Notes under the pieces: generated by a model
The model's input: the letters and a program-made list of their open reading frames with translations, nothing else
Told to the model about the DNA's origin: nothing
Database searches by the model: none
In this document: piece by piece, positions 1-12,666 of the stretch
Layout of the letters: each line of letters begins with the position of its first letter
Position numbering within the stretch: position 1 is the stretch's first letter
NCBI GenBank assembly: GCA_031404295.1
Contig: JANNHJ010000361.1
Span: 1-20,513 of the forward strand
DNA length: 20,513 bases
Origin: Myxococcales bacterium
GTDB lineage: Bacteria > Myxococcota_A > Polyangia > Nannocystales > Nannocystaceae
Direction: 5' to 3'
Program-made: the position numbers and the translations under genes

Positions 1-1692
1 CCAACCGAAGTCGATGACTTCGGCGACATCGATTTCGACGAGGAGCCCGCCGCGGCAGCACCACCGCCGCCGCCACCACCCGCCAACAAGGCCGGCAAGA
101 CCAAGGGCGACACGATCGATCTGGGCGAGGAGACCGACGCCGCGTTCGCAGCCCTGACCTTCGATGACGACGACGAGATGCCGCTCGAGCCCGAGCCCGC
201 GACCGAGCCTGTGCCGCCGGAGGCCGAGCCTGAGCCCGAAGTGGTCCCTGAGCCTGAGCCCGAAGTGGTCCCTGAGCCTGAGCCAGAGCCTGAGCCAGAG
301 CCAGCTCCCGCGGTCAACGAGCTCGAGGTCGCGCTGACCCCCGAGACGCGCGAGGCCGAGGCGCCCGAGCCGGTCGACCACGAGAACTCGGGCGATCGCC
401 TGTCGGGCCGGCGCGAGCTGCTGCGGCTGCGCTCGGAGCTCAACAAAAAGGACCGCGAGCTGCTCTCGCTCCGCAACGAACTCGAGCAGCGCGAACGGGC
501 GATCCTCGACGCCAAGCAAAAGAACCGGCAGCTCGAGGAGACCGCCAGCGAGGCCGAATCACGCGCCCTGGCCCTCGAAGAACAGGTCATCTCGGCCCAG
601 GAAGAGGCCGATGCGGCGACCCGCAACACCGAGACCCAGCGCAAGCGCGAAGAAGGGTTCAAGACCCGTCTCGATGCCGCGCAAAAGAAGACCAAAGAGC
701 TCGAGACCCAACTCGACGCCGCCGACAAGCAGGTCGCCGAGCTGAGCGGTCAAACCAGCGCGCTGGAGGCCAAGTTCGAACTCGCTCAGCAGCAGTTGAG
801 CCAGCGCGACGAGCAGGCGGTCGAGGCCGAGCAAGAGCGCGACACCCTGGCCGGTGAGCTCAACGAGTTCAAGGCTGCTGCCGAGGCCGCGGGTGGCAAG
901 CTCGCGGCGGCCGAAGCCGCGCGCCAAGCAGTCGAAGCTCGGTTGGCGATCGTCGAGGGCCAGCAGCGCGCGCTCGAGGCTGATCAGGGTGACGTTCAGA
1001 CCAAGCTGAGCGAGACCCAGGCCACGCTGAGCGAGGCTCGGACCAAACTGGCCGAGACCGAGTCCAGGTTGAGCGAGACCGAAACCACGCTCGCCGAGAC
1101 CCAGGCCAAGCTGGCCGAGACCGAGACCACGCTCGCCGAGACCAAGACCAAACTGGCCGAGACCGAGACCAGCTCGAGCGAAGCGCAGGCCAAGTTGGCC
1201 GAGGCCGAGCTGCGTGGGCAGTCGCTGACCAGCGAGCTCGCGCTGCTGGGCACTGCCAAGCAAGCGGTTCAACAGCAGCTCGGCGAGCTCGAACAGACCA
1301 GCCAGGCCAACGCGACCCAGCACGACCTCAAGGTTGCGGAGCTCGAGGAAAAGCTGGCCAGTCAAGCCGAGGACTTGCAGTCCGAGCTCGAGTTCCTCGA
1401 GAAGCAGGCCGACCAATTGCGCGGGCAGTTGACCGAGGCGAGCCAGGCGGCCACGACCGCGGCGGAGTCTGCCGAGTCCGAGCGCAAGGTCCTGGAGGTC
1501 GAGCTGGCCAGCGCTCGCGAGGCGAGCCAAACCGCTCAGGTCGAGACCCAGGCTCTGCGCGAGCGCTTCGAACACAGCCTCACCGATCTCGAGGCCCGCC
1601 AGCAGGAGCTCGAGAGCCAGTTGGCCGCTCGCAGCGACGCCGCTCGGCGAGCCCAGCAGGCGCTGGCCGTGGCCCTGAAAGTTTTGGAGTGA
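1..1692 (+). CDS. Coiled-coil protein, 5'-partial (the frame is open to the window edge). It has an acidic Pro/Glu-rich (PEPEPEVVP) N-terminal linker, then about 400 aa of Ala/Glu/Gln/Leu-rich heptad coiled coil that includes LAETETT heptad tandem repeats.
   Basis: The frame is open from base 1 to TGA 1690-1692. GC3 is strongly high in this frame. The heptad periodicity and EPEP repeats are visible in the translation. The antisense 558-aa ORF is Arg/Gly-rich junk. No family assignment is possible without a search. Confidence 0.8.
   Translation, partial: PTEVDDFGDIDFDEEPAAAAPPPPPPPANKAGKTKGDTIDLGEETDAAFAALTFDDDDEMPLEPEPATEPVPPEAEPEPEVVPEPEPEVVPEPEPEPEPEPAPAVNELEVALTPETREAEAPEPVDHENSGDRLSGRRELLRLRSELNKKDRELLSLRNELEQRERAILDAKQKNRQLEETASEAESRALALEEQVISAQEEADAATRNTETQRKREEGFKTRLDAAQKKTKELETQLDAADKQVAELSGQTSALEAKFELAQQQLSQRDEQAVEAEQERDTLAGELNEFKAAAEAAGGKLAAAEAARQAVEARLAIVEGQQRALEADQGDVQTKLSETQATLSEARTKLAETESRLSETETTLAETQAKLAETETTLAETKTKLAETETSSSEAQAKLAEAELRGQSLTSELALLGTAKQAVQQQLGELEQTSQANATQHDLKVAELEEKLASQAEDLQSELEFLEKQADQLRGQLTEASQAATTAAESAESERKVLEVELASAREASQTAQVETQALRERFEHSLTDLEARQQELESQLAARSDAARRAQQALAVALKVLE
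226..306 (+). repeat. Perfect 24-nt tandem duplication (gagcctgagcccgaagtggtccct, copies at 226-249 and 250-273, encoding EPEPEVVP), followed by gagcc(t/a) hexamer repeats (EP)n.
   Basis: Read directly from the sequence. The two copies are identical at the nucleotide level. Confidence 0.9.
1006..1215 (+). repeat. About eight to ten tandem 21-nt (heptad) repeats encoding L-(S/A)-E-T-x-x-x units (TLSEARTK / LAETESR / LSETETT / LAETQAK / LAETETT / LAETKTK / LAETETS ...) inside the coiled-coil gene.
   Basis: The 21-nt periodicity of ctggccgagaccgagaccacg-like units is visible in the sequence. It degenerates toward 1215. Confidence 0.8.
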
Positions 1693-3511: not shown

Positions 3512-3882
3512 GCGAGCAAGCGGAGCGTCGCGGCAGCGAGCGCCGCGATGACTTCGTCGTCGTCACCGAGCGCGCCCGGGACCAGCGTGATCTCGACATC
3601 CACGAACCTCGCGCGGGCCGCCTCGACCGCCTCGGGGATGTCGTGTTTGACATGTCGGCCGCCGGGCGAGAGCAGGGCCGACACGACGACGATCTTGCGA
3701 TGTCCGGCCTCGTGCAGCAGGGCGACGGCGTCGGCGAGCCTGGGCTCATGCGCGAGGTAGGCGAGCGCGACCGCATCCGCGCCGCGCTCGGCCGCGAGCC
3801 GAGCCTCGAGCTGTTCGAGCGGCCGTCGCCAGTCGGGATCGGGCGAGCCGTGGGCGATCAACACCAGCGCCGAGCCAGTCAT
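3406..3882 (-). CDS. CbiX-like (SirB/CbiX small-form) sirohydrochlorin chelatase-family protein, about 158 aa. Its start ATG 3882-3880 overlaps the serA stop (ATGA). Its last roughly 35 codons form a low-complexity tail that overlaps the hflX 3' end.
   Basis: The translation MTGSALVLIAHGSPDPDW...VVVSALLSPGGRHVKHDIPEAVEAARARF matches the CbiX signature motifs (HGS-x-DP; G-x-H-V-K-x-D-IP). The region 3512-3882 codes only on this strand and has high GC3. The tail 3406-3511 shares wobble positions with hflX, so GC3 cannot tell the two apart there. Confidence 0.65.
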   Translation of the reverse strand: MTGSALVLIAHGSPDPDWRRPLEQLEARLAAERGADAVALAYLAHEPRLADAVALLHEAGHRKIVVVSALLSPGGRHVKHDIPEAVEAARARFVDVEITLVPGALGDDDEVIAALAAATLRLLAYSSADPGSGANASSPASTFSGPAGPRSTLPRTHR

Positions 3883-5084
3883 CGTGACCGCAAGTCGACG
3901 GCCAGCACGTTGGCGTCGCGGCGAATCTCGTCGAGCAGCTCGGCACTGGGCTCGTTCTCGAGCACGATCGTCGCCGACGCGGCTCCCTCGGCGCCCTTGA
4001 ACACCACGTTGCTCATCTCCTGGACGTTGATCCGAGCCCGACGCAGAGCATCGAGCACGCCCGCGAGCACGCCAACGCGATCGAGGTGGCGAACGACGAG
4101 GTTGTAGAGCCCGGTCCGATCGGTGACGAGGTTGACGACGTTGGGCACCGAGCCGCGCTCGCCGAACTCCCGAATGATGCGGGCGGTCTCGGTTGCGATC
4201 GCCTCGCTGGCCTGCTCGGTCGAGGCCCCGACGTGCGGAGTCATGTAGATGCCCTCGACCCCGCGCAGGCCCAACTCGAAGCGAGCCGTCCCGGCGTCGG
4301 GTTCGCCCTCGAACACGTCGAGCCCAGCCCGGACGTGGCCGGCCTTCACGGCCTCGGTCAGCGCCGCATCGTCGACGACCCCGCCGCGCGAGGTGTGGAT
4401 CAGCAGGGCGCCCTTCTTCATCAGGCCGAGCTCGCGCGCGCCGATCAGATGGCGGGTGCTCTCGCGGTAGGGCACGTGCACGCTGATCACGTCGCAACTC
4501 GGCAGCAGCTCATCGAGGCTGGCGGCGACCTCGAGCTTGCGGGCGGCGGCGTACTGGGCATCGATGAAGGGATCGAACACGGCCACCCGCATGCCGAAGG
4601 CGCGAGCCCGACTGGCGACCTCGCGGCCGATCGCTCCGAACCCGACCAAGCCGAGCCGCCGGCCGTAGATGCCCTCGGCCTTGCTGTACTTCTTCTTGTT
4701 CCACGAGCCCGCGGCCAGCTCGGCCGTCGCCTCGCAGATCCGCCGGTCGAGCGCGAGGATCAAGCCCATCGCCAGCTCGGCGACCGCGATCGCGTTTTTG
4801 CCCGGGCAGTTGGACACGAACACACCCCGCCGACTCGCGGCTTCGAGATCGATCGTGTTGACACCCGCGCCAGCCCGGATGACCAGCGAGAGTCGATCGG
4901 CGGCCGCAAACGCGGCCTCGCGAACCTCGGTCGAGCGGACGACCAAAACCTCGGGCCGCTCCTCGGCCAACAAGGCCGGCAGCGCGTCGGCACTGACGTC
5001 GGGGTTGTAGACGATGGGGTGGCCAAGCTGCTCGATGGCGGCCAGACCGGCGGTCGAGAACTTGTCGGCGATCAGGATTCGCAT
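3879..5084 (-). CDS. serA: D-3-phosphoglycerate dehydrogenase (2-hydroxyacid dehydrogenase fold plus a C-terminal ACT-like regulatory domain), about 401 aa. The likely start is ATG 5084 (MRILIADKF). The ORF-finder start at 5156 adds 24 implausible residues.
   Basis: The NAD-binding motif GLVGFGAIGREVA, the catalytic-region RGGVVDD and the overall SerA-like order are read from the translation. The stop TGA is at 3881-3879. Confidence 0.9.
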   Translation of the reverse strand: MRILIADKFSTAGLAAIEQLGHPIVYNPDVSADALPALLAEERPEVLVVRSTEVREAAFAAADRLSLVIRAGAGVNTIDLEAASRRGVFVSNCPGKNAIAVAELAMGLILALDRRICEATAELAAGSWNKKKYSKAEGIYGRRLGLVGFGAIGREVASRARAFGMRVAVFDPFIDAQYAAARKLEVAASLDELLPSCDVISVHVPYRESTRHLIGARELGLMKKGALLIHTSRGGVVDDAALTEAVKAGHVRAGLDVFEGEPDAGTARFELGLRGVEGIYMTPHVGASTEQASEAIATETARIIREFGERGSVPNVVNLVTDRTGLYNLVVRHLDRVGVLAGVLDALRRARINVQEMSNVVFKGAEGAASATIVLENEPSAELLDEIRRDANVLAVDLRSR

Positions 5085-5085
5085 C

Positions 5086-5107
5086 GGCTCTAGGTACCAC
5101 GAGAGCC
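5086..5107. promoter_or_regulatory. Inverted repeat GGCTCT-(aggtaccacg)-AGAGCC abutting the serA start codon in the divergent serA/lipoprotein intergenic region.
   Basis: Read directly from the sequence. It has a 6-bp stem and a 10-nt loop containing the GGTACC palindrome. Confidence 0.2.
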
Positions 5108-5159
5108 CCCGCCGAGTCTTCGCTAGCCAATCTCCGCGCAGATCGGTATCACCCAATCG

Positions 5160-7280
5160 ATGTCCGCTCTCGGCCGACCCTGGCTCGCCGTGCTGGCGCT
5201 CGCGTTCGTGCTCGCGTGCGGGGGCGGACGTGGAGCGACGGATCCGGGCTCGCCCGAGCTCGAGGCCGCGACCGAGAGTGCGAAATCGGCTGCCGAGTCG
5301 GACGACGGGTCGGACCCGCCCGCCCGCGCGAGCCTCGATGTCTTCATGGCTGGCTTCGCTCGCGAACCGGCACCGCCGAGCGAACTGCCGACCCCCGAAC
5401 AGGCCGGCAGTTGTCCAGCGACCAAGGACCGCGACCGCGACCTAGGCATCTTGATCTCGCCGCTGCATCCCGCCAAAGGCCAAGAAGTTCGAGTGATCGC
5501 AGCCACGCTGGTCGGCGAAGACGCGCTCGCTGTGCGGATCGAACGAGACGGCCAAGCGATCCCCGTCGAGGTCGTCCATCGGCTCGGCGTGCCGGCGGCG
5601 ACCATCGCCCGGTTCGAGCCGAGCGAGAGCGGCAAGTTCGAGGTCGTGGTCGGCCGGGCCGGCAAGGGCATGCGCTGCTCGAGCTTCACGGTTCGCAACG
5701 GACGGTTCCGCGACGAGAGCCTGGCCGACATGACCCGAGTCTGGCCGGTCGAGCGCAACTGGGATCGCCAAGAAGAGGCGCTCTACAGCGCCTGGCTGCG
5801 CGAGCTGTTCGCGGGGCCTGCCGACCGAGATCTCGCGTGGAAGTCGTTGACCGAGGTCACGAGCGACCGCCAGCGCAACTTGCTGCACGACCACCTTGGT
5901 CGAGCCGAGGACGACCCGACGCTCGGCATGCAGCTCGCGCCCGACTGCGCCGACACCCCCTACTTTCTGCGGGCCTACTTCGCCTTCAAGCGCGGGCTGC
6001 CGTTCGGGTTTCGTCGGTGCTCGCGCGGCAAAGGCAAGCCGCCGAGCTGCTTCGATCTGCGCACCAACGAGAGTCCGCCGGATCTCAAGCCAACTTGGAT
6101 CGATCCGGTCGCGCCGGTCCTGCCCATGCACACCGCCATGGTCGAGCACTTCTTTCGCAAGACCGTCGGCTGGGGGGTCCACACCGGCAACGGTCGAACT
6201 GGCTTTGGCGACTCGCAGAGCGACCTCTATCCGGTCGCGCTCGACCGTCGTGGCCTGCGACCGGGCATCGTCTACGCCGATCCTTATGGCCACATCTTGG
6301 TTCTGGTCGAGCTGGTCGAGGCCCGCGGCACCAAGCCAGGCATCCTGTTCGCCATTGATGGCCAACCCGACGCCTCGATCACCCGCAAGCGGTTTTGGGA
6401 GGGCAATTTTTTGTGGAACCAAGCCGACCCGACCCTCGGCGGGAGCGGGTTCAAGGCATTTCGACCGATCACGCCGATCGGCGCTGGCGAGACGCTGACG
6501 TGGGTGCAGGCCAGCGACGAGACCCTCGCCAAGCTGCGCGACTACGGCGACGTCTCGATGGAGCAGCGTGAGCTGACCCCGCTCGACTTTTACGATCGCA
6601 TGGAACGGCTGATCACCCCCGGAGTGCGGAGCCCCTTCGCCGCCCAAGAAGAAGCGGTCGACGCCCTGGCCGAGGCGGTCCGCGTGCGGGTGACCTCGAT
6701 CGGCAACGGGCTCGAGTGGCAGGCCAAACATCCCAAGGACATCGCCGAGATGCCGTGGGGGCACCAAGTGTTCGAGACCAGCGGTGCGTGGGAGGACTAT
6801 TCGACCCCGGCCCGTGACTTGCGCTTGCTGATCGCCATGGATGTGGTCCAGGGTTTCGAGGCCAAGCTCCGCCGCAACCCCGAGGCCTTCGGGGTCACGA
6901 ACGATCCGGCTGTGCTCGAGCAGACCGCGACCTACTTGGCCGAGCAGCGCGGCTTGCTGCTGGCCGATCCCGCTCGGGCGATCGAGTACAAACGCTCGGA
7001 CGGCAGCACCTGGACTCTGCACTTGGACGAGATCCTCGCTCGCGCCGAGGCCTTCGAGTCGGCCTACAACCCCAACGACTGCCCCGAGGTTCGCTGGGGA
7101 GCTCCGCAAGCCAGCGACGAGCGCTCGACATGTCGACGCCACGCGCCGGACGACCAGCAAGCCAAAATGCGCGTCTACCGAGTCTGGTTTGCCGAACGGC
7201 GACGGCCGGGGCGGGGCGACATGGGCCCAGACGTGCCGGAGCTAGCCGGGCTTGCGCGGGTCGCCGACGAGCAAGACTGA
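5160..7280 (+). CDS. Large predicted lipoprotein (706 aa) of unknown function. It has a signal peptide with a lipobox (FVLAC-GGG), an acidic linker, and then about 600 aa globular region(s).
   Basis: The N-terminal h-region plus L-A-C lipobox and high GC3 throughout support the call. A speculative Cys...His...Asp arrangement is present (DCADTPYFLRAYFAFKRGLPFGF ... YADPYGHILVLVEL ... ILFAIDGQPD). Confidence 0.8.
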   Translation: MSALGRPWLAVLALAFVLACGGGRGATDPGSPELEAATESAKSAAESDDGSDPPARASLDVFMAGFAREPAPPSELPTPEQAGSCPATKDRDRDLGILISPLHPAKGQEVRVIAATLVGEDALAVRIERDGQAIPVEVVHRLGVPAATIARFEPSESGKFEVVVGRAGKGMRCSSFTVRNGRFRDESLADMTRVWPVERNWDRQEEALYSAWLRELFAGPADRDLAWKSLTEVTSDRQRNLLHDHLGRAEDDPTLGMQLAPDCADTPYFLRAYFAFKRGLPFGFRRCSRGKGKPPSCFDLRTNESPPDLKPTWIDPVAPVLPMHTAMVEHFFRKTVGWGVHTGNGRTGFGDSQSDLYPVALDRRGLRPGIVYADPYGHILVLVELVEARGTKPGILFAIDGQPDASITRKRFWEGNFLWNQADPTLGGSGFKAFRPITPIGAGETLTWVQASDETLAKLRDYGDVSMEQRELTPLDFYDRMERLITPGVRSPFAAQEEAVDALAEAVRVRVTSIGNGLEWQAKHPKDIAEMPWGHQVFETSGAWEDYSTPARDLRLLIAMDVVQGFEAKLRRNPEAFGVTNDPAVLEQTATYLAEQRGLLLADPARAIEYKRSDGSTWTLHLDEILARAEAFESAYNPNDCPEVRWGAPQASDERSTCRRHAPDDQQAKMRVYRVWFAERRRPGRGDMGPDVPELAGLARVADEQD

Positions 7281-7392
7281 GCGAGGCTCGGTCTTGATCC
7301 GACCCTTTGGTCCGAAGACCAGCGGGACGGCCGATCGGCCGGGCACCAGAAAACGGGTTAATGAGCGCTACGAAGGGTGTAGACTCCCCCAG

Positions 7393-7740
7393 ATGTCGAC
7401 GACCGAGGGAGCGAGCGACGATCCCAGCGATCGGCGCGACAACCAGCGCTTCGACTACGAGGTCATCGTCCAGGTGACGCGTGGCGACCTCAGCTTTCAG
7501 AGCGTGAGCGAAGACGTGAGCACCGGTGGCATGCGACTGCGCCTCGAGGGCGCGCCGCCACGGGTTGGCGAGCGTCTGCGGGTCGAGTTCAAGCTGCCTT
7601 TGCTCGCCGATCCGATCCGAGCCGAGGCCGAGATTCGCTGGATCGATCGCTCGTCGGTCTCCAGTTGTGGTGTGCAGTTCATGACCGGCCTGCGTGCGCG
7701 CGAGGTCTGGGCGATCAATCGCCTGCACGCGCGGCGGTGA
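7393..7740 (+). CDS. Stand-alone PilZ-domain protein (c-di-GMP receptor), about 115 aa.
   Basis: The RxxxR motif (RRDNQR) is followed about 30 aa later by D-x-S-x-G-G (EDVSTGGMRL) in the translation. The ATG is at 7393 and the stop TGA at 7738-7740. The 162-aa ORF-finder version adds an unlikely N-terminus. Confidence 0.8.
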   Translation: MSTTEGASDDPSDRRDNQRFDYEVIVQVTRGDLSFQSVSEDVSTGGMRLRLEGAPPRVGERLRVEFKLPLLADPIRAEAEIRWIDRSSVSSCGVQFMTGLRAREVWAINRLHARR

Positions 7741-8468
7741 TGGGCATGCTCGTCGAGTCAGCCCGAGTGGCTGTGTGCATCGTGCTTGCCCTCGCCGGTC
7801 TGTCGCCGGCGTCGGCATGGGCTGGTCAGCCCGAGCCAGCCCGGCCCGCCGACCCCGACGCGATCGTCGACGTTCACGCCCACGAGCCCGAAGTTGCAGT
7901 CGACCCCCCCGAGCCTGCGACCGAGATCCCGATCCCGATCCCGACGAGTTCCCCACCTGTCGGCGGGTCGATCCGCGTGGCCGTTGGGCTCTCGCCCGAG
8001 GCGCTCGGCGACAAGCTCGAGCGAGCGTTGCTCGATCGGCTCGAGCTCTCGGTCCGGGCGTCGACCAACCCCAAGACCGAAGTCCGCCGGCTGCGAGCTG
8101 GCGCCGCCGAGGCCCGGGTGCTCTGCCGCGAAGGTCGCGACGATCTGATCATCACGATCGGCTACCTGCCCGATCGCAGCGATGCCGTGCTGTTCGGCTA
8201 CGACTGTCGGATCGACGAGCAACTCGGGATCCGCTCGTCGATCGCCGCCGACGAGCCCGACCTCGTCGGCGTGCTCTGGGCCGAGCACGCCGATCGGGTC
8301 GCGGCGGGGGCTCGAGAGCGGCGGCGCAACGTGATCTCGCCCAAGGTCAAGACCGGGCTGATCGCCGGCGCGGCCGTGCTGGTCATCGGGGCGGCGATCA
8401 CCTTGCTGATCGTCGGCGCCGCGTCGCGCGAGACCGTGGTGATCAAGGTGACGCCCGAAAATCCCTAG
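7740..8468 (+). CDS. Unknown exported or bitopic membrane protein, about 242 aa. It has an N-terminal signal peptide or anchor (MGMLVESARVAVCIVLALAGLSPASAWAG), a Pro/Glu-rich linker, a roughly 150-aa domain, and a C-terminal TM helix (LIAGAAVLVIGAAITLLIVGAA). Its start ATG 7740-7742 overlaps the pilZ stop (TGATG).
   Basis: The frame is high-GC3. The hydrophobic segments are read directly. The longer 7665 start would overlap pilZ and lacks signal-peptide logic. Confidence 0.65.
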   Translation: MGMLVESARVAVCIVLALAGLSPASAWAGQPEPARPADPDAIVDVHAHEPEVAVDPPEPATEIPIPIPTSSPPVGGSIRVAVGLSPEALGDKLERALLDRLELSVRASTNPKTEVRRLRAGAAEARVLCREGRDDLIITIGYLPDRSDAVLFGYDCRIDEQLGIRSSIAADEPDLVGVLWAEHADRVAAGARERRRNVISPKVKTGLIAGAAVLVIGAAITLLIVGAASRETVVIKVTPENP

Positions 8469-9520
8469 TCGCGGCTCTTGGGCATCTGCTTGATGTAGAC
8501 GTCGGTCTTGGCGTAGGGGATCTCGATGTTGGCCGCGTTGAGCGAGTTGTAGATCCGAGTCGCTACCTCGTCGACGACGGCGTCGCGGATCCTCGGGATC
8601 TCGAGCCATACCCAAGCCTCGAAATCCAGGCCGGACTCGCCGAGCCCACGCAAGCGAACGATCGGCGTCGGCAAGACCATGATGTGTGGGGTGTCGACGA
8701 TCCCAGCCAGCACGACCGCGCGAACCTGGGCGAGGTCACTGCCGTAGGCGACCGAGAACTTGACCCGCACGCGCTGGCGGACATGCGGGCCGCCGGTCTC
8801 GTTGAGCACCTGAGCGTTGCCGATCACCGCGTTGGGCACGGTGATCTCGACATCGTCGTTGGTCAGAACCCGGGTCGACCGAATCCCGATGTGGGTGACC
8901 TCGCCGCGCAAGTCGTTGTCGAGCACGATCCAGTCCTTCACCTTGTAGGGCCCGTCGGCGAGGATGAAGATGCCCGAGAACAGGTTGGCCAACGTGTCCT
9001 TGGCCGCGAACCCGACCGCGATGCCCAAGATCCCAGCCGAGGCCAACCAGGCGGTCAGATCGATGTCCCAGGCCAGGAACATGAAGTAGAAGCTGGCCGC
9101 GATGGCCAGGGTCTTGAGGACCATGTCGAACACCGGCAGCGTGCGCGGCTGAAGCATCGAACGGTCGCGGGCCTGGGCACTCCAACTCTGCAGCACGATC
9201 GTCCCGACCCGAATGATCGCCAGCGTCCAGATGATGATCGCCAGGGTCTCGAGCACCGAGATCACCGGTCCCGAAACGGTCTCGGGCAGCTCGAGCAGCT
9301 CGGTCGACCAGCTCAGGCCGTAGAGCAGCACGCTGAGAAAGATCGGTCGGCGGATGATCTCGACGATCACGTCGTCGAGATCGGTCTTGGTCTTCGCCGC
9401 GGCGACCGCGATCGTCTTGGCGAGGATGACCTCGACCAGCCAGGCACCAACCACCGAGAGGAGGGCAACCCCGAGCGCCTCGATGTAGGGAATGGCCAGC
9501 AGGTTGTGGAGAAACTCCAT
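8465..9520 (-). CDS. MscS-family mechanosensitive ion channel, 351 aa.
   Basis: N-terminal TM helices are followed by the conserved pore/beta-domain region ASAGILGIAVGFAAKDTLANLFSGIFILADGPYKVKDWIVL...GEVTHIGIRSTRVLTNDDVEITVPNAVIGNAQVLN. The start ATG is at 9520-9518. The stop overlaps the convergent upstream gene in a CTAG (8465-8468). Confidence 0.9.
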   Translation of the reverse strand: MEFLHNLLAIPYIEALGVALLSVVGAWLVEVILAKTIAVAAAKTKTDLDDVIVEIIRRPIFLSVLLYGLSWSTELLELPETVSGPVISVLETLAIIIWTLAIIRVGTIVLQSWSAQARDRSMLQPRTLPVFDMVLKTLAIAASFYFMFLAWDIDLTAWLASAGILGIAVGFAAKDTLANLFSGIFILADGPYKVKDWIVLDNDLRGEVTHIGIRSTRVLTNDDVEITVPNAVIGNAQVLNETGGPHVRQRVRVKFSVAYGSDLAQVRAVVLAGIVDTPHIMVLPTPIVRLRGLGESGLDFEAWVWLEIPRIRDAVVDEVATRIYNSLNAANIEIPYAKTDVYIKQMPKSRD

Positions 9521-9681
9521 GACCGGCGATTTGAGCCCCAGGCCGAGCCCGACGCAAGCCCTCCACCCCCATCCACGGCTTGCCCGGCATCTGACTGGCC
9601 CCTGGCGTGCGCTCGACGTCCCAACGAAACACGGCTTTGATACGCTCGTAGGGACTCACCGAGCTTGCGCGGCTTCGGGTC

Positions 9682-10734
9682 GTGCCCAACCTCCTCCTCA
9701 CCATGGCCTCCATCGTCCCCGCTCGGTTCGCTCGTTTGTGGCCTCGCCTGTTCGGCATGCTCGGCGCGCTCTCGCTGGCGGCCGTGCTGGTCGGGCTGCC
9801 GCAGACCGCCAAGGCCGAGGAGGGCCAGCCGATCGGCTGGGCGCTCGACGACGCCAGCGAGACGCTGATCAAGGGCCGCGCGCTGTTTCGCTACGAGCCT
9901 GGGCTCGACGACGAGACTCGCGAACTAGCAGACAACTTGCCGCAGTGGTGGTCCGAGATCGAGCGGACGCTCGGGAGCGACCTCGACGACAGCGTCGTCA
10001 TCCACGTCGTCAGCCACTCGGGCATGGTCGCGCGTGCGACCGGCATGCCGGTCTGGGTCTCGGGCGTCGCCCATCCGCCGCGCGGCGAGATCGTCGTTGC
10101 CTTGCACGACCCCGACGGCTCGCGCTCGGACCTCGAGACCCTGTTGCGCCACGAGCTGGTCCATGTCGCCTTGTTCCGGGCCAGCGGCGGAGCCAAGCTG
10201 CCCCGCTGGTTTCACGAAGGCGCCGCCGAGAGCATCGCCAACGAGATCGACCTGATGCGCGCCGAGGCGCTGGCCAGCGCCGTGTTCGGAGTCGGCGTAC
10301 CGCCGATCGGCGAGCTCGAGGCCGCGTTTCGGGGCGACGCGAACCAGGCCTCGGTCGCCTACGCGGCGGCCCGCGACTTCACGACCTGGCTGCGCTACCA
10401 CGACGCCGACGGCTCGCAGTTCCGCCAGCTGTTCAGCCAGCTCCGCATGGGTCGCGGCTTCGAGACCGCGGTCGCCGACGCCTACGGCGAGAGCCTGGCC
10501 GATCTCGACGCCCAGTGGCGCGCCGGCTTGCTTGGCCGGTTCGTATGGTTTCCGCTGCTCGGTTCGGGCGAGCTGCCCTTCTTGCTGCTGGCGCCTGCGA
10601 TCGGCTACGCGTGGGTTCGCCGACGTCGACAGCTGGCCGCGGGTTGGGCCCGGCTCGACGCCGAAGACGAGGCCGATCGCCGTCGGCTGGTCGAGTCAGC
10701 CACCCGCTCGCACGGACTTCACTTCGCGCACTGA
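9682..10734 (+). CDS. Secreted, membrane-anchored putative zinc metallopeptidase of the peptidase-MA-like type, with HExxH plus a downstream EGxAE. It has a signal peptide ending AKA-EEG and a C-terminal TM helix plus a basic cytoplasmic tail. The alternative start is ATG 9703.
   Basis: LLRHELVHVALF ... PRWFHEGAAESIANE is read from the translation (HExxH with a Glu about 24 aa downstream, gluzincin-like). The hydrophobic C-terminal segment FVWFPLLGSGELPFLLLAPAIGYAWV is followed by RRRRQ. Confidence 0.7.
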   Translation: MPNLLLTMASIVPARFARLWPRLFGMLGALSLAAVLVGLPQTAKAEEGQPIGWALDDASETLIKGRALFRYEPGLDDETRELADNLPQWWSEIERTLGSDLDDSVVIHVVSHSGMVARATGMPVWVSGVAHPPRGEIVVALHDPDGSRSDLETLLRHELVHVALFRASGGAKLPRWFHEGAAESIANEIDLMRAEALASAVFGVGVPPIGELEAAFRGDANQASVAYAAARDFTTWLRYHDADGSQFRQLFSQLRMGRGFETAVADAYGESLADLDAQWRAGLLGRFVWFPLLGSGELPFLLLAPAIGYAWVRRRRQLAAGWARLDAEDEADRRRLVESATRSHGLHFAH

Positions 10735-11825
10735 TTGAGCACCCGCTCGATGACCACCCGGGCTTCGGTCAGCACGCTGGCCTGCCATTGCGGATCGTCG
10801 GGCCCGAACGCGTCGCGCATCGCCGCGTGAATCCCTGCCGCCTGGGCGTGGCCGAGATCGGCGTGGGCCCACAGCCAGTGGTCGTTGCACAGCGTCCGCA
10901 ACACTCGCTGGAGCGGCAGCGTGCCGAACTCGTGGGCGATCGCAACCAATGATCCAACCCGCTCGCCGAGCTCCGCCCGAACTCCGATCAGCAGATCGCC
11001 ATGGGTCGCGTAGGCGATGGTGCCGGGTGCGTCGACCGGAACCACGGCCGCGCCCCACAGCCGCTCGGCCTCGGCGAACTCGCGCTGGCCTTCGTCGCGC
11101 GGGGCCGCGATCAGCTGGCCACGGCCGCGCTCGCCGAGCCCCGAGTGATAGTCGATCAGCACCACGCGCTCGCGACCGATCAGCGAGCGGACGATCGCTC
11201 GCAAGCGCCGGTTCGACCACGTCGAGGTCTCGCCGCCATAAAAAGGCGCCAGCGCGAATTTGTACTGCCCACCAGCGATCGCCCCGGGCCCGAGCTCGCC
11301 CAGCACGGCCAACAACTGGGCGTCGCCAGCCTCGCGGGTTGGGCCCTCGAGCTCGCTGGGAACCAAGAGTTCGGCCACGCGATCAAAGTCAGGGCTCTCG
11401 GGCAGCGGCTGGGTGAACTCGACGAAATTGCGGTTGAGATCGACCCCGTCCTCGTTGCACCGGCGGTCCCAGGCAAATCCCCAGGGATTGATCGCATGGA
11501 TGACCAACACGGCGAACGAGCTAGGCAACCCATCGACGAGCCCCGACTCGATCGTGTCGATGCCGATGCCCGATCCACAACGACCCTCGATCCCGTGGGT
11601 GCCGCTGAGCAGCACCAGCACCGTGCGAGCGTCGCGTGGACCAAACCACGCGACATCGACGAACAGTCGCTCGCCCGAGCGCCCGCGCAAGGGATGTTGG
11701 TGCGTCTCGTGCCAGCTCGGTCGAACGCGCTCGAACGCGGCGAGCAAACGAGCGCGGCAGCTCGGATAGTCGGAGCCAAACGGGCTGGCGAACACCCCGA
11801 GACTCTCGCACACCAGCGGCCGCAC
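10719..11825 (-). CDS. M14-like zinc carboxypeptidase-fold protein of the AstE/AspA or DUF2817 type, about 368 aa, with no signal peptide.
   Basis: It carries the motifs LLSGTHGIEGRCGSG (H-G-x-E metal-ligand motif), HAINPWGF and DLNRNF, which are typical of the succinylglutamate desuccinylase / aspartoacylase / M14 superfamily. The probable GTG start is at 11825. The 3' end overlaps the convergent peptidase gene by 16 nt. Confidence 0.65.
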   Translation of the reverse strand: MRPLVCESLGVFASPFGSDYPSCRARLLAAFERVRPSWHETHQHPLRGRSGERLFVDVAWFGPRDARTVLVLLSGTHGIEGRCGSGIGIDTIESGLVDGLPSSFAVLVIHAINPWGFAWDRRCNEDGVDLNRNFVEFTQPLPESPDFDRVAELLVPSELEGPTREAGDAQLLAVLGELGPGAIAGGQYKFALAPFYGGETSTWSNRRLRAIVRSLIGRERVVLIDYHSGLGERGRGQLIAAPRDEGQREFAEAERLWGAAVVPVDAPGTIAYATHGDLLIGVRAELGERVGSLVAIAHEFGTLPLQRVLRTLCNDHWLWAHADLGHAQAAGIHAAMRDAFGPDDPQWQASVLTEARVVIERVLNQCAK

Positions 11826-11850: not shown

Positions 11851-12666
11851 TCAGCCAGCCTTGGCTTGGTGCACGACGATCGCCGGGACCGGCAGCTCGA
11901 TGTTGGCCTTGGCGAGGTGCTCGTAGAGCGCCCGACGGACGGCCGGCTGCATCGGGATGAAGTCGCCTGGCTTGGAATTGACCATGACGTCGAAGGTCAG
12001 CTTGTCGGGCTCGCAGTTGACGAACACGGCCTCCGGGGCGGGACTCTTCAACACCATCGCGACCGTGCCGGCCGCGGCCTCGAGCACTTCGCGGACCTTG
12101 CCGATGTCGTTGCCCGACGCGACCATCACTCGGACCTGTGCGCGCGGCTGGCCGAGCGCCGTGTAGTTGGTGATCGGCCCGCCCGTGACGGCCCCGTTGG
12201 CGACGATGATCTTGGTCGAATCCGGGGTGATCAGCGTGGTCCCGAACAAGCCGATCTCGTGGACCTCACCGGTCTTGCCGGCGACCTCGACGACATCGCC
12301 GATCGAGATCGGTCGGAACAAGAGCAGCATGACGCCGCTCGCGAAGTGCGAGAGGTTGCCTTGCAGCGCCAGGCCGACGGCCAGACCGGCGGTGCCGAGC
12401 AGCGCGACCAAGCTGGTCGTCTCGACCCCAACCCGGGCCAACGCGGTGATGATCGCCGCCGCGATCACGGCCCACTGCGCGAGCGCAGCCAAGAACCGAA
12501 CTACCGCCTCGTCGACCTTGCGATTGCGCAGCAGCTTGGTGACCAAGCCATGGACCCAGCCCGCGACGATCCAGCCGAACAGGAAGATGAGGAGAGCCGT
12601 GACACTGCCGACGATCAACGGCATGTAGGGCTGAAGGGCATCGGGGATGAACGGGAGCTCGGTCAT
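11851..12666 (-). CDS. MscS-family mechanosensitive channel, the second paralog, 271 aa (YggB-like size).
   Basis: Three N-terminal TM helices are followed by ALLGTAGLAVGLALQGNLSHFASGVMLLLFRPISIGDVVEVAGKTGEVHEIGLFGTTLITPDSTKIIVANGAV. The ATG is at 12666-12664. Confidence 0.9.
   Translation of the reverse strand: MTELPFIPDALQPYMPLIVGSVTALLIFLFGWIVAGWVHGLVTKLLRNRKVDEAVVRFLAALAQWAVIAAAIITALARVGVETTSLVALLGTAGLAVGLALQGNLSHFASGVMLLLFRPISIGDVVEVAGKTGEVHEIGLFGTTLITPDSTKIIVANGAVTGGPITNYTALGQPRAQVRVMVASGNDIGKVREVLEAAAGTVAMVLKSPAPEAVFVNCEPDKLTFDVMVNSKPGDFIPMQPAVRRALYEHLAKANIELPVPAIVVHQAKAG

What the first reader, a model, noticed from the sequence alone, without database searches (positions are those of the whole stretch)
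7393..8468. Translationally coupled PilZ receptor plus unknown bitopic membrane protein
A minimal single-domain PilZ protein with intact RxxxR and DxSxGG motifs ends in TGA. That stop overlaps the ATG of a 242-aa protein (TGATG), which has an N-terminal signal or anchor, a Pro-rich linker, an uncharacterized roughly 150-aa domain and a C-terminal TM helix.

Tight coupling suggests a two-component c-di-GMP effector module, with PilZ regulating or partnering the membrane protein. The partner protein's family is not recognizable by eye. A large unknown lipoprotein (5160-7280) lies just upstream.
Basis: partly seen in the sequence, partly recalled or inferred. Interest (0 to 1): 0.55.

Follow-up and report, generated by a model that had tools for sequence, protein, structure and literature searches.

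The report
PilZ gene in conserved envelope operon
A small c-di-GMP-sensing PilZ protein and the unknown membrane protein beside it are real, linked genes, but they belong to a conserved four-gene myxobacterial cell-envelope operon whose steadiest pairing is the membrane protein with a zinc peptidase, not with PilZ.

Summary
ORF 7393-7740 is a 115-aa single-domain PilZ with intact RxxxR and DxSxxG motifs. Its TGA overlaps the ATG of a 242-aa ORF (7740-8468).

That ORF has a signal peptide, an acidic Pro-rich linker, a compact alpha/beta domain of about 115 aa, a basic stretch, a C-terminal TM helix and a 13-aa tail. It matches no Pfam or NCBIfam family. Relatives were found only in Nannocystaceae and unclassified myxobacterial MAGs. 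Its fold resembles the TolB N-terminal domain, PelC and anticodon-binding domains.

In 33 related loci the conserved unit is lipoprotein (5160-7280), PilZ, 242-aa protein, then an MA-clan zinc peptidase (9682-10734).
- PilZ precedes the 242-aa gene in 19 of 31 informative loci. All 12 loci without it form one clade, which suggests a single loss.
- The peptidase follows the 242-aa gene in 32 of 33 loci. The stop and start codons overlap in five of the eight loci without an MscS gene whose junctions I read.
- In this window an MscS gene has been inserted between them.

Best reading: PilZ is an optional c-di-GMP input to an envelope module made of the bitopic protein and the peptidase. This is inferred, not shown. 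Membrane topology is unresolved. No paper found links PilZ to these genera. Interest is moderate.

The parts
5160..7280 (+). First gene of the conserved operon: a 706-aa predicted lipoprotein. It has a VLAC lipobox and an N-terminal Ig/filamin-like beta-sandwich. The remaining roughly 500 aa form a conserved body with no family assignment.
7393..7740 (+). Stand-alone PilZ domain protein of 115 aa, a predicted cytoplasmic c-di-GMP receptor.
   Evidence: Pfam PF07238 at E 1.8e-16. GC3 0.81. Orthologues in 13 of the first 26 loci keep both motifs and a C-terminal helix GLRAREVWAINRL.
7435..7449 (+). RxxxR motif (R15-D-N-Q-R19) of the PilZ domain.
   Evidence: Read from the sequence. Conserved as [RK]RxxxR in all 13 orthologues aligned.
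7513..7530 (+). DxSxxG motif (D41-V-S-T-G-G46) of the PilZ domain.
   Evidence: Read from the sequence. Conserved as [DN]xSxxG in all 13 orthologues aligned.
7738..7742 (+). TGATG: the PilZ stop codon and the start codon of the 242-aa gene share one base.
   Evidence: A start codon overlaps the PilZ stop in 9 of 13 loci, and in the gene calls of L027, L032 and L033. L001, L002, L013 and L024 have gaps of 6-46 nt, and L028, L030 and L031 gaps of 8-71 nt.
7740..8468 (+). 242-aa bitopic protein of an uncharacterised family found here only in Nannocystaceae and unclassified myxobacterial MAGs. Parts: signal peptide aa 1-28 (7740-7823); acidic Pro-rich linker aa 29-76 (7824-7967); alpha/beta domain aa 77-190 (7968-8309) with invariant C129 and C156, VRRLR and CREGRDDL motifs; basic stretch aa 191-204 (8310-8351); TM helix aa 205-228 (8352-8423); conserved tail RETVVIKVTPENP (8424-8465).
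   Evidence: 78 homologues. 56 representatives among 1.84 billion. Alignment A1. AF2 pLDDT about 96 for aa 80-190. Fold hits to aaRS anticodon-binding domains, the TolB N-terminal domain and PelC. Hydropathy.
8465..9520 (-). MscS-family mechanosensitive channel gene on the opposite strand. It is a lineage-specific insertion between the 242-aa gene and the peptidase gene. Its stop and that of the 242-aa gene share the palindrome CTAG at 8465-8468.
   Evidence: Pfam MS_channel domains. Present at this position only in the window, L001, L003-L006, L012, L013 and L027, which form one clade.
9682..10734 (+). Membrane-anchored MA-clan zinc metallopeptidase of 350 aa. It has a signal peptide, HELVH plus WFHEGAAE, a C-terminal TM helix, an RRRR cluster and a conserved cytoplasmic helix GWARL[DE]AED. 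It is the most constant neighbour of the 242-aa gene.
   Evidence: Pfam Peptidase_MA_2 at E 4.5e-10. HExxH and WFHEG invariant in all 24 orthologues aligned. Follows the 242-aa gene in 32 of 33 loci.

Best explanation
The two ORFs are the second and third genes of a conserved operon of Nannocystaceae and related unclassified myxobacteria. The gene order is lipoprotein (706 aa), PilZ, 242-aa bitopic protein, membrane-anchored MA-clan zinc peptidase.

The 242-aa protein is most likely exported by a cleavable signal peptide. That would place a compact TolB-N/PelC-like alpha/beta domain, probably stapled by a C129-C156 disulfide, in the periplasm. A C-terminal TM helix would tether it to the inner membrane and leave a 13-residue tail in the cytoplasm.

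It would act as an accessory subunit (scaffold, regulator or substrate adaptor) of the co-translated peptidase, which has the same topology. The lipoprotein would be a further periplasmic component or the substrate.

PilZ is the only cytoplasmic product of the operon. It would bind c-di-GMP through its RxxxR and DxSxxG motifs and dock on the short conserved cytoplasmic tails of one or both bitopic proteins. That would pass the second-messenger level across the membrane to the periplasmic module (inside-out signalling).

This c-di-GMP input is dispensable: one clade lost PilZ and kept the rest.

Shown: the genes are real, the PilZ identity and motif conservation, the fold class, the synteny, the overlapping junctions and the single-clade absence. 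Inferred: topology, disulfide, physical contacts, peptidase activity and its target, and the direction of regulation.
For: - PilZ domain and motifs.
- Four-gene order in the window plus L001, L004-L006, L012, L013, L017, L019, L024-L028 and L030-L033.
- Overlapping stop/start between PilZ and the 242-aa gene.
- Overlapping stop/start between the 242-aa gene and the peptidase gene: L007, L015, L030, L032 and L033.
- The peptidase follows the 242-aa gene in 32 of 33 loci.
- All 12 loci without PilZ form one clade in a neighbour-joining tree of the concatenated 242-aa protein and peptidase. Lineages with PilZ lie on both sides of the midpoint root.
- Signal-peptide-like N-termini ending AxA in nearly all members.
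- Exactly two cysteines after residue 30 in 70 of 72 members, both invariant.
- High-confidence alpha/beta domain whose best Foldseek hits are the periplasmic TolB N-terminal domain and PelC.
- The peptidase keeps HExxH plus WFHEG and has a TM helix followed by RRRR and a conserved cytoplasmic helix.
Against: - No physical or co-folding evidence for PilZ contacting either membrane protein.
- The C-terminal TM helix of the 242-aa protein is preceded by a mean of 6.6 Lys/Arg in 15 residues and followed by only 1.2. The positive-inside rule would therefore put the domain in the cytoplasm, contrary to the signal-peptide model.
- The cytoplasmic tails of both bitopic proteins look equally conserved in the clade that lacks PilZ. 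No sequence feature tracks PilZ presence.
- One MAG contig (L002) lacks the peptidase downstream.
- In the window itself the peptidase is separated by an opposite-strand MscS gene and cannot be co-transcribed with the pair.
Confidence: 0.45

Rival explanations
1. Synteny without partnership. PilZ is co-transcribed with the envelope genes for historical or expression-timing reasons. Its protein target lies elsewhere, for example motility, polysaccharide export or another membrane complex. The 242-aa protein works only with the peptidase and lipoprotein and is not regulated by c-di-GMP.
For: - A whole clade keeps the 242-aa protein plus the peptidase without PilZ.
- No feature of the 242-aa protein or the peptidase tail differs between loci with and without PilZ.
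- If the signal peptide is used, only about 13 residues of the 242-aa protein are cytoplasmic.
- Characterised stand-alone PilZ adaptors often act on targets encoded elsewhere (general knowledge of MapZ and Xanthomonas PilZ).
Against: - PilZ holds exactly the same position between the same two genes in every lineage with PilZ, down to about 35% PilZ identity. The stop/start codons often overlap.
- Such retention usually reflects a functional and stoichiometric link.
- The closest PilZ relatives found by sequence, 23 of 29 hits at 111-118 aa, include those beside the 242-aa gene in Enhygromyxa and Pseudenhygromyxa.
Confidence: 0.28
2. Cytoplasmic-domain model. The conserved alpha/beta domain of the 242-aa protein faces the cytoplasm, as the positive-inside rule predicts for the C-terminal TM helix. 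It is the direct, stoichiometric binding partner of PilZ, and the protein is effectively tail-anchored.
For: - There is a strong basic cluster (mean 6.6 K/R) on the N-terminal side of the TM helix and a near-neutral C-terminal tail.
- This model would give PilZ a full domain to bind.
Against: - The N-terminus has a basic n-region, a hydrophobic core and an AxA site in nearly all members. An N-in orientation or cleavage puts the following sequence outside.
- The linker is acidic and Pro-rich.
- Exactly two invariant cysteines suggest a disulfide.
- All other non-PilZ operon products carry export signals.
- The domain is equally conserved where PilZ is absent.
Confidence: 0.12
3. PilZ and the 242-aa protein alone form a self-sufficient two-protein c-di-GMP effector, and the flanking lipoprotein and peptidase are unrelated neighbours.
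For: TGATG overlap in the window. In the window the peptidase gene is separated from the pair by an opposite-strand MscS gene.
Against: - The MscS gene is a single-clade insertion.
- Elsewhere the 242-aa gene and the peptidase gene are adjacent, with overlapping stop/start codons in five loci.
- The lipoprotein gene precedes PilZ in every PilZ-bearing locus with enough upstream sequence.
- The 242-aa protein exists without PilZ in 12 loci.
Confidence: 0.07

Closest known systems
Stand-alone single-domain PilZ adaptors (for example Pseudomonas MapZ and Xanthomonas PilZ)
   Same: Small size (115 aa) and a single PilZ barrel. RxxxR and DxSxxG motifs are present. There is an extra C-terminal helix that could serve as a partner-binding surface. 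The expected mode of action is c-di-GMP-dependent binding to another protein (general knowledge of the family).
   Different: No sequence relative closer than Alg44 PilZ among solved structures, at E 0.12. The genomic partners are a bitopic protein of unknown family, an MA-clan peptidase and a lipoprotein, not chemotaxis, pilus or flagellar proteins. Binding and target are untested.
LapD-LapG c-di-GMP inside-out control of periplasmic proteolysis (PMC3032553, PMC3032545)
   Same: Conceptual resemblance only. In both, a cytoplasmic c-di-GMP receptor is genetically tied to an inner-membrane protein with a periplasmic domain and to a periplasm-facing protease.
   Different: The parts are unrelated. 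LapD senses c-di-GMP with a degenerate EAL domain in the same polypeptide as its periplasmic domain, and LapG is a cysteine protease. Here the sensor is a separate PilZ, the membrane proteins are single-pass, and the protease is a zinc HExxH enzyme. No functional evidence exists here.
TolB N-terminal domain and PelC lipoprotein fold (anticodon-binding-domain-like alpha/beta fold)
   Different: Sequence identity is 10-14%. There is no Pfam or PDB sequence match. The 242-aa protein has no lipobox, carries a C-terminal TM anchor, and has family-specific invariant motifs (VRRLR, CREGRDDL, DC). The same fold scores higher against cytoplasmic aaRS anticodon-binding domains, so this is fold-level similarity only.
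Alg44 / BcsA-type PilZ-controlled envelope machines
   Same: A PilZ domain gating a trans-envelope process. Alg44 PilZ is the nearest solved sequence, though only weakly.
   Different: In Alg44 and BcsA the PilZ domain is fused to the membrane protein, and the output is polysaccharide synthesis. Here PilZ is a separate gene, and no glycosyltransferase or export genes are in the operon.

Membership tests
PilZ domain (Pfam PF07238) | Match to the family profile above the curated threshold | tested here: met
   60.8 bits against a gathering score of 22.5, E 1.8e-16, residues 13-104.
PilZ domain (Pfam PF07238) | N-terminal RxxxR c-di-GMP-binding motif | tested here: met
   R15-D-N-Q-R19. Conserved in all 13 orthologues aligned.
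PilZ domain (Pfam PF07238) | (D/N)xSxxG motif about 20-30 residues downstream | tested here: met
   D41-V-S-T-G-G46. Conserved as [DN]xSxxG in all 13 orthologues.
PilZ domain (Pfam PF07238) | Binds c-di-GMP | not testable with these tools
   Needs DRaCALA, ITC or MST with purified protein and an RxxxR mutant.
YcgR-type flagellar brake (the name JGI gives to close homologues) | Two-domain architecture: an N-terminal YcgR/PilZN domain plus a C-terminal PilZ | tested here: not met
   The protein is 115 aa and has only a PilZ hit. The 'YcgR' labels on P0128, P0131 and P0138 are over-annotations.
TolB N-terminal / PelC-like periplasmic domain | Sequence-profile membership | tested here: not met
   No TolB or PelC hit; none of the weak Pfam matches (E up to 5) is to a periplasmic-domain family. 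No NCBIfam hit. No PDB sequence hit with the family profile.
TolB N-terminal / PelC-like periplasmic domain | Same three-dimensional fold | tested here: inconclusive
TolB N-terminal / PelC-like periplasmic domain | PelC-type lipoprotein signal (lipobox Cys) | tested here: not met
   The N-terminus ends AWA|G with no conserved lipobox Cys across the family.
LapD/LapG inside-out proteolysis system | Receptor with degenerate GGDEF-EAL domains and a LapG-type cysteine protease | tested here: not met
   No GGDEF or EAL in any operon product, and no cysteine-protease family hit on the peptidase. It matches MA-clan Peptidase_MA_2 and has HExxH. This is an analogy only.
C-terminal sorting signals (MYXO-CTERM, PEP-CTERM, GlyGly-CTERM) | Signature motif, TM helix, then a C-terminal basic cluster, recognised by NCBIfam/TIGRFAM models | tested here: not met
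   No NCBIfam hit at E<=0.1. The basic cluster lies before the TM helix, not after it.
Peptidase_MA_2 (PF13485), for the neighbouring gene 9682-10734 | Profile match plus the HExxH...E zinc site | tested here: met
   40.1 bits against a cut-off of 32.4. HE[LM]xH and WFHEGxAE are invariant in the 24 orthologues aligned. Catalytic activity is untested.

The most novel reading that the evidence does not exclude
The operon encodes a previously undescribed c-di-GMP inside-out switch. A free-standing PilZ would clamp the short cytoplasmic tails of two single-pass proteins: a TolB-N/PelC-like subunit and an HExxH metallopeptidase. That would turn periplasmic proteolysis on or off, possibly of the co-encoded 706-aa lipoprotein. 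It would be a functional analogue of LapD-LapG built from unrelated parts, and the first PilZ shown to signal outward across the membrane through a tail of about 13 residues.
Probability: 0.18. Interest if true: 0.65.

Novelty: new variant of a known kind. Interest (0 to 1): 0.4.

Why it matters
Stand-alone PilZ proteins are common, but most have no known target. Here, conserved and often overlapping gene order over wide sequence divergence names concrete candidates. They are a family-specific bitopic protein, a membrane-anchored zinc peptidase, and a very widespread, well-conserved lipoprotein of unknown fold.

If PilZ does act on them, this would be a new route by which c-di-GMP controls the periplasm. 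It would also be a first functional handle on three uncharacterised protein families in marine and soil myxobacteria.

If it does not, the result still corrects the picture. The functional unit is the four-gene operon. Its steadiest pair is the bitopic protein and the peptidase, not PilZ and the membrane protein.

Tried and rejected
1. AF2 co-fold of the 242-aa protein fused to PilZ through a Gly-Ser linker, with 14 paired orthologues (alignment A2).
2. Foldseek against afdb50 was unavailable.
3. Pfam, NCBIfam and PDB sequence searches for the 242-aa protein and the 706-aa lipoprotein found nothing. Scanning all 25 family members against Pfam at E<=5 gave only weak DUF3040 hits in 12 members. 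I attribute these to the basic stretch and TM region, but did not check which residues matched, and I do not take them as homology.
4. TTG 7665 as the start of the membrane protein was rejected on GC3 and homologue N-termini.
5. A sortase/exosortase/MYXO-CTERM-type sorting signal was rejected.
6. MscS as the PilZ target was rejected. The MscS gene is a late insertion in a single clade, whereas PilZ is ancestral.
7. The promoter and terminator scan of 5000-10000 was uninformative: 0 promoter-like sites and 1 terminator-like site inside the MscS gene, which is below the shuffled expectation.
9. A PilZ homologue search found no Nannocystis orthologue.
10. A literature search for PilZ with Nannocystis or Enhygromyxa found nothing relevant among the 10 papers listed.

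Full report
**What is in the sequence.**
The window is a 67% GC contig. Its proteins have near-identical matches only in Nannocystaceae.

An ATG at 7393 opens a 115-aa ORF that ends with TGA at 7738-7740. The A of that stop is the first base of an ATG (7740-7742), which opens a 242-aa ORF ending at TAG 8466-8468. Third-position GC is 0.81 and 0.86, typical of real genes here.

The longer TTG-7665 version of the second ORF is not credible. Between 7665 and 7739, GC3 is 0.80 in the PilZ frame and 0.56 in the other frame. Homologues also start at the signal peptide.

**The PilZ.**
The 115-aa protein matches Pfam PilZ at E 1.8e-16 and nothing else. It carries RxxxR (R15-R19) and DxSxxG (D41-G46).

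Thirteen syntenic orthologues, at 36% to 92% identity, keep both motifs. They also keep a C-terminal helix, GLRAREVWAINRL.

It is a single-domain PilZ. The 'YcgR' label that JGI gives to close homologues is not justified. Among solved structures, the nearest by sequence is Alg44 PilZ, and only at E 0.12.

**The 242-aa protein.**
It has no Pfam, NCBIfam or PDB sequence relative. The family is small. One search found 78 clusters. An exhaustive search found 56 representatives among 1.84 billion sequences.

All named sources are Enhygromyxa, Pseudenhygromyxa, Nannocystis, Plesiocystis, Paraliomyxa or unclassified myxobacterial MAGs.

The alignment and the AF2 model give this layout:
- a signal-peptide-like N-terminus ending AxA
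- a variable acidic, Pro-rich linker
- a compact alpha/beta domain (aa 77-190, pLDDT about 96) with invariant VRRLR, CREGRDDL and DC motifs
- exactly two cysteines after residue 30 in 70 of 72 members
- a basic stretch
- a 24-residue TM helix
- a conserved tail of 11-13 residues, R-[ED]-T-V-V-[LI]-x-V-x-P

**Genomic context.**
I fetched 26 genome loci through the 242-aa protein. I fetched 7 more independent loci through the upstream lipoprotein. I mapped all window proteins onto them by tblastn.

The recurrent order is: a divergently transcribed SerA-like dehydrogenase, then the 706-aa lipoprotein, PilZ, the 242-aa protein and a Peptidase_MA_2 protein.

- **Peptidase linkage.** The peptidase follows the 242-aa gene in 32 of 33 loci. 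The exception is the MAG contig L002. Where no MscS gene intervenes, I read eight junctions. Stop and start codons overlap in five (L007, L015, L030, L032, L033). The gap is 5, 53 and 74 nt in L031, L029 and L028.
- **PilZ linkage.** PilZ lies immediately upstream of the 242-aa gene in 19 of 31 loci with enough upstream sequence. The junction is an overlap or a gap of at most about 70 nt.
- **Pattern of PilZ absence.** The 12 loci without PilZ are the cultured Nannocystis species plus several MAGs. They form one clade in neighbour-joining trees of the peptidase alone and of the concatenated 242-aa protein and peptidase. Lineages with PilZ lie on both sides of the midpoint root. The simplest history is an ancestral four-gene operon with one loss of PilZ.
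- **MscS insertion.** The opposite-strand MscS gene that separates the 242-aa gene from the peptidase in this window is a single-clade insertion.

**The neighbours.**
The peptidase keeps HExxH and WFHEGxAE in all 24 orthologues aligned. It has an N-terminal signal sequence, a C-terminal TM helix followed by RRRR, and a conserved cytoplasmic helix.

The 706-aa protein has a lipobox with an invariant Cys20 and many other invariant cysteines. Its family has more than 4500 members, none with a Pfam domain and all named ones labelled 'hypothetical'.

**Interpretation.**
PilZ is the only cytoplasmic product of an operon that otherwise encodes exported or membrane-anchored proteins. The most economical model has two parts. 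First, the 242-aa protein and the peptidase form an inner-membrane, periplasm-facing module, with the lipoprotein as a component or substrate. Second, PilZ supplies a dispensable c-di-GMP input from the cytoplasmic side, through the short tails of the bitopic proteins.

This resembles LapD-LapG inside-out control of periplasmic proteolysis in logic only, not in parts (PMC3032553, PMC3032545).

Gene identities, motif conservation, synteny and overlapping junctions are shown. Topology, contacts and activity are inferred.

**Weak points.**
- The TM helix of the 242-aa protein is preceded by about 6.6 Lys/Arg and followed by about 1.2. By the positive-inside rule this argues for a cytoplasmic domain. 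It conflicts with the N-terminal signal peptide, the acidic linker and the two-cysteine signature. Topology is therefore unresolved and needs experiment.
- The tails of both bitopic proteins look the same whether or not PilZ is present. Nothing in the sequences marks a PilZ docking site.
- I could not run a complex prediction.
- The rival in which PilZ is merely co-transcribed and acts elsewhere remains substantial.

**Verdict.**

The PilZ is an ordinary member of its family. The 242-aa protein and the lipoprotein belong to uncharacterised families. The association of a stand-alone PilZ with a bitopic protein plus metallopeptidase module matches no Pfam, NCBIfam or PADLOC-independent family I tested, and the one literature search aimed at it found nothing.

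I rate it a new variant of a known kind (a PilZ adaptor plus a membrane effector). Interest is moderate.

Noticed in passing
window 18037-19449 (+): A 471-aa ORF with Pfam MVP_shoulder (E 2e-28) and Vault_3 (E 5.7e-6). These are major-vault-protein-like domains in a myxobacterial contig.
   Followed up: no
window 5160-7280 (+): The 706-aa lipoprotein belongs to a very large, highly conserved family with no annotation: more than 4500 hits, with an invariant GQPDxSITRKRFWEGNFLWN...LGGSGFK block. The confident AF2 model (pTM 0.84) finds only Ig/filamin-type matches in PDB, which I assign to its N-terminal domain. About 500 residues therefore have an apparently unmatched fold.
   Followed up: partly
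window 8465-8468: The convergent 242-aa gene and MscS gene end on the same palindrome, CTAG. Their stop codons overlap (TAG on each strand) and leave no intergenic space for a terminator.
   Followed up: no
window 3879-5156 (-) and the equivalent position in most related loci: A SerA-like D-2-hydroxyacid dehydrogenase with an ACT domain is divergently transcribed from the lipoprotein gene in every locus where the lipoprotein gene is present. Some loci have a second paralogue and a CbiX gene beside it. I did not examine whether this is functional linkage or plain synteny.
   Followed up: no
window 10722-11825 (-) and 11854-12666 (-): A DUF2817 protein (E 3e-90) and a second MscS-family channel lie just downstream of the peptidase gene. 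The window therefore has two MscS paralogues within 4 kb.
   Followed up: no
L002 8739-15594: In this MAG contig the 242-aa gene is followed by unrelated ORFs that I did not annotate, not by MscS or the peptidase. It is the only exception among 33 loci. It could be a rearrangement or a mis-assembly.
   Followed up: partly
L010 6053-7632 and L021: In these two Nannocystis MAGs, about 1.5 kb has replaced PilZ between the lipoprotein gene and the 242-aa gene. Read in L010, it holds an opposite-strand ORF that looks like a TetR-type regulator (not checked against Pfam) and one further ORF.
   Followed up: no
window 178-1689 (+): A 504-aa ORF with only weak coiled-coil-type hits (crescentin rod, MscS_porin), both below their thresholds.
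   Followed up: no
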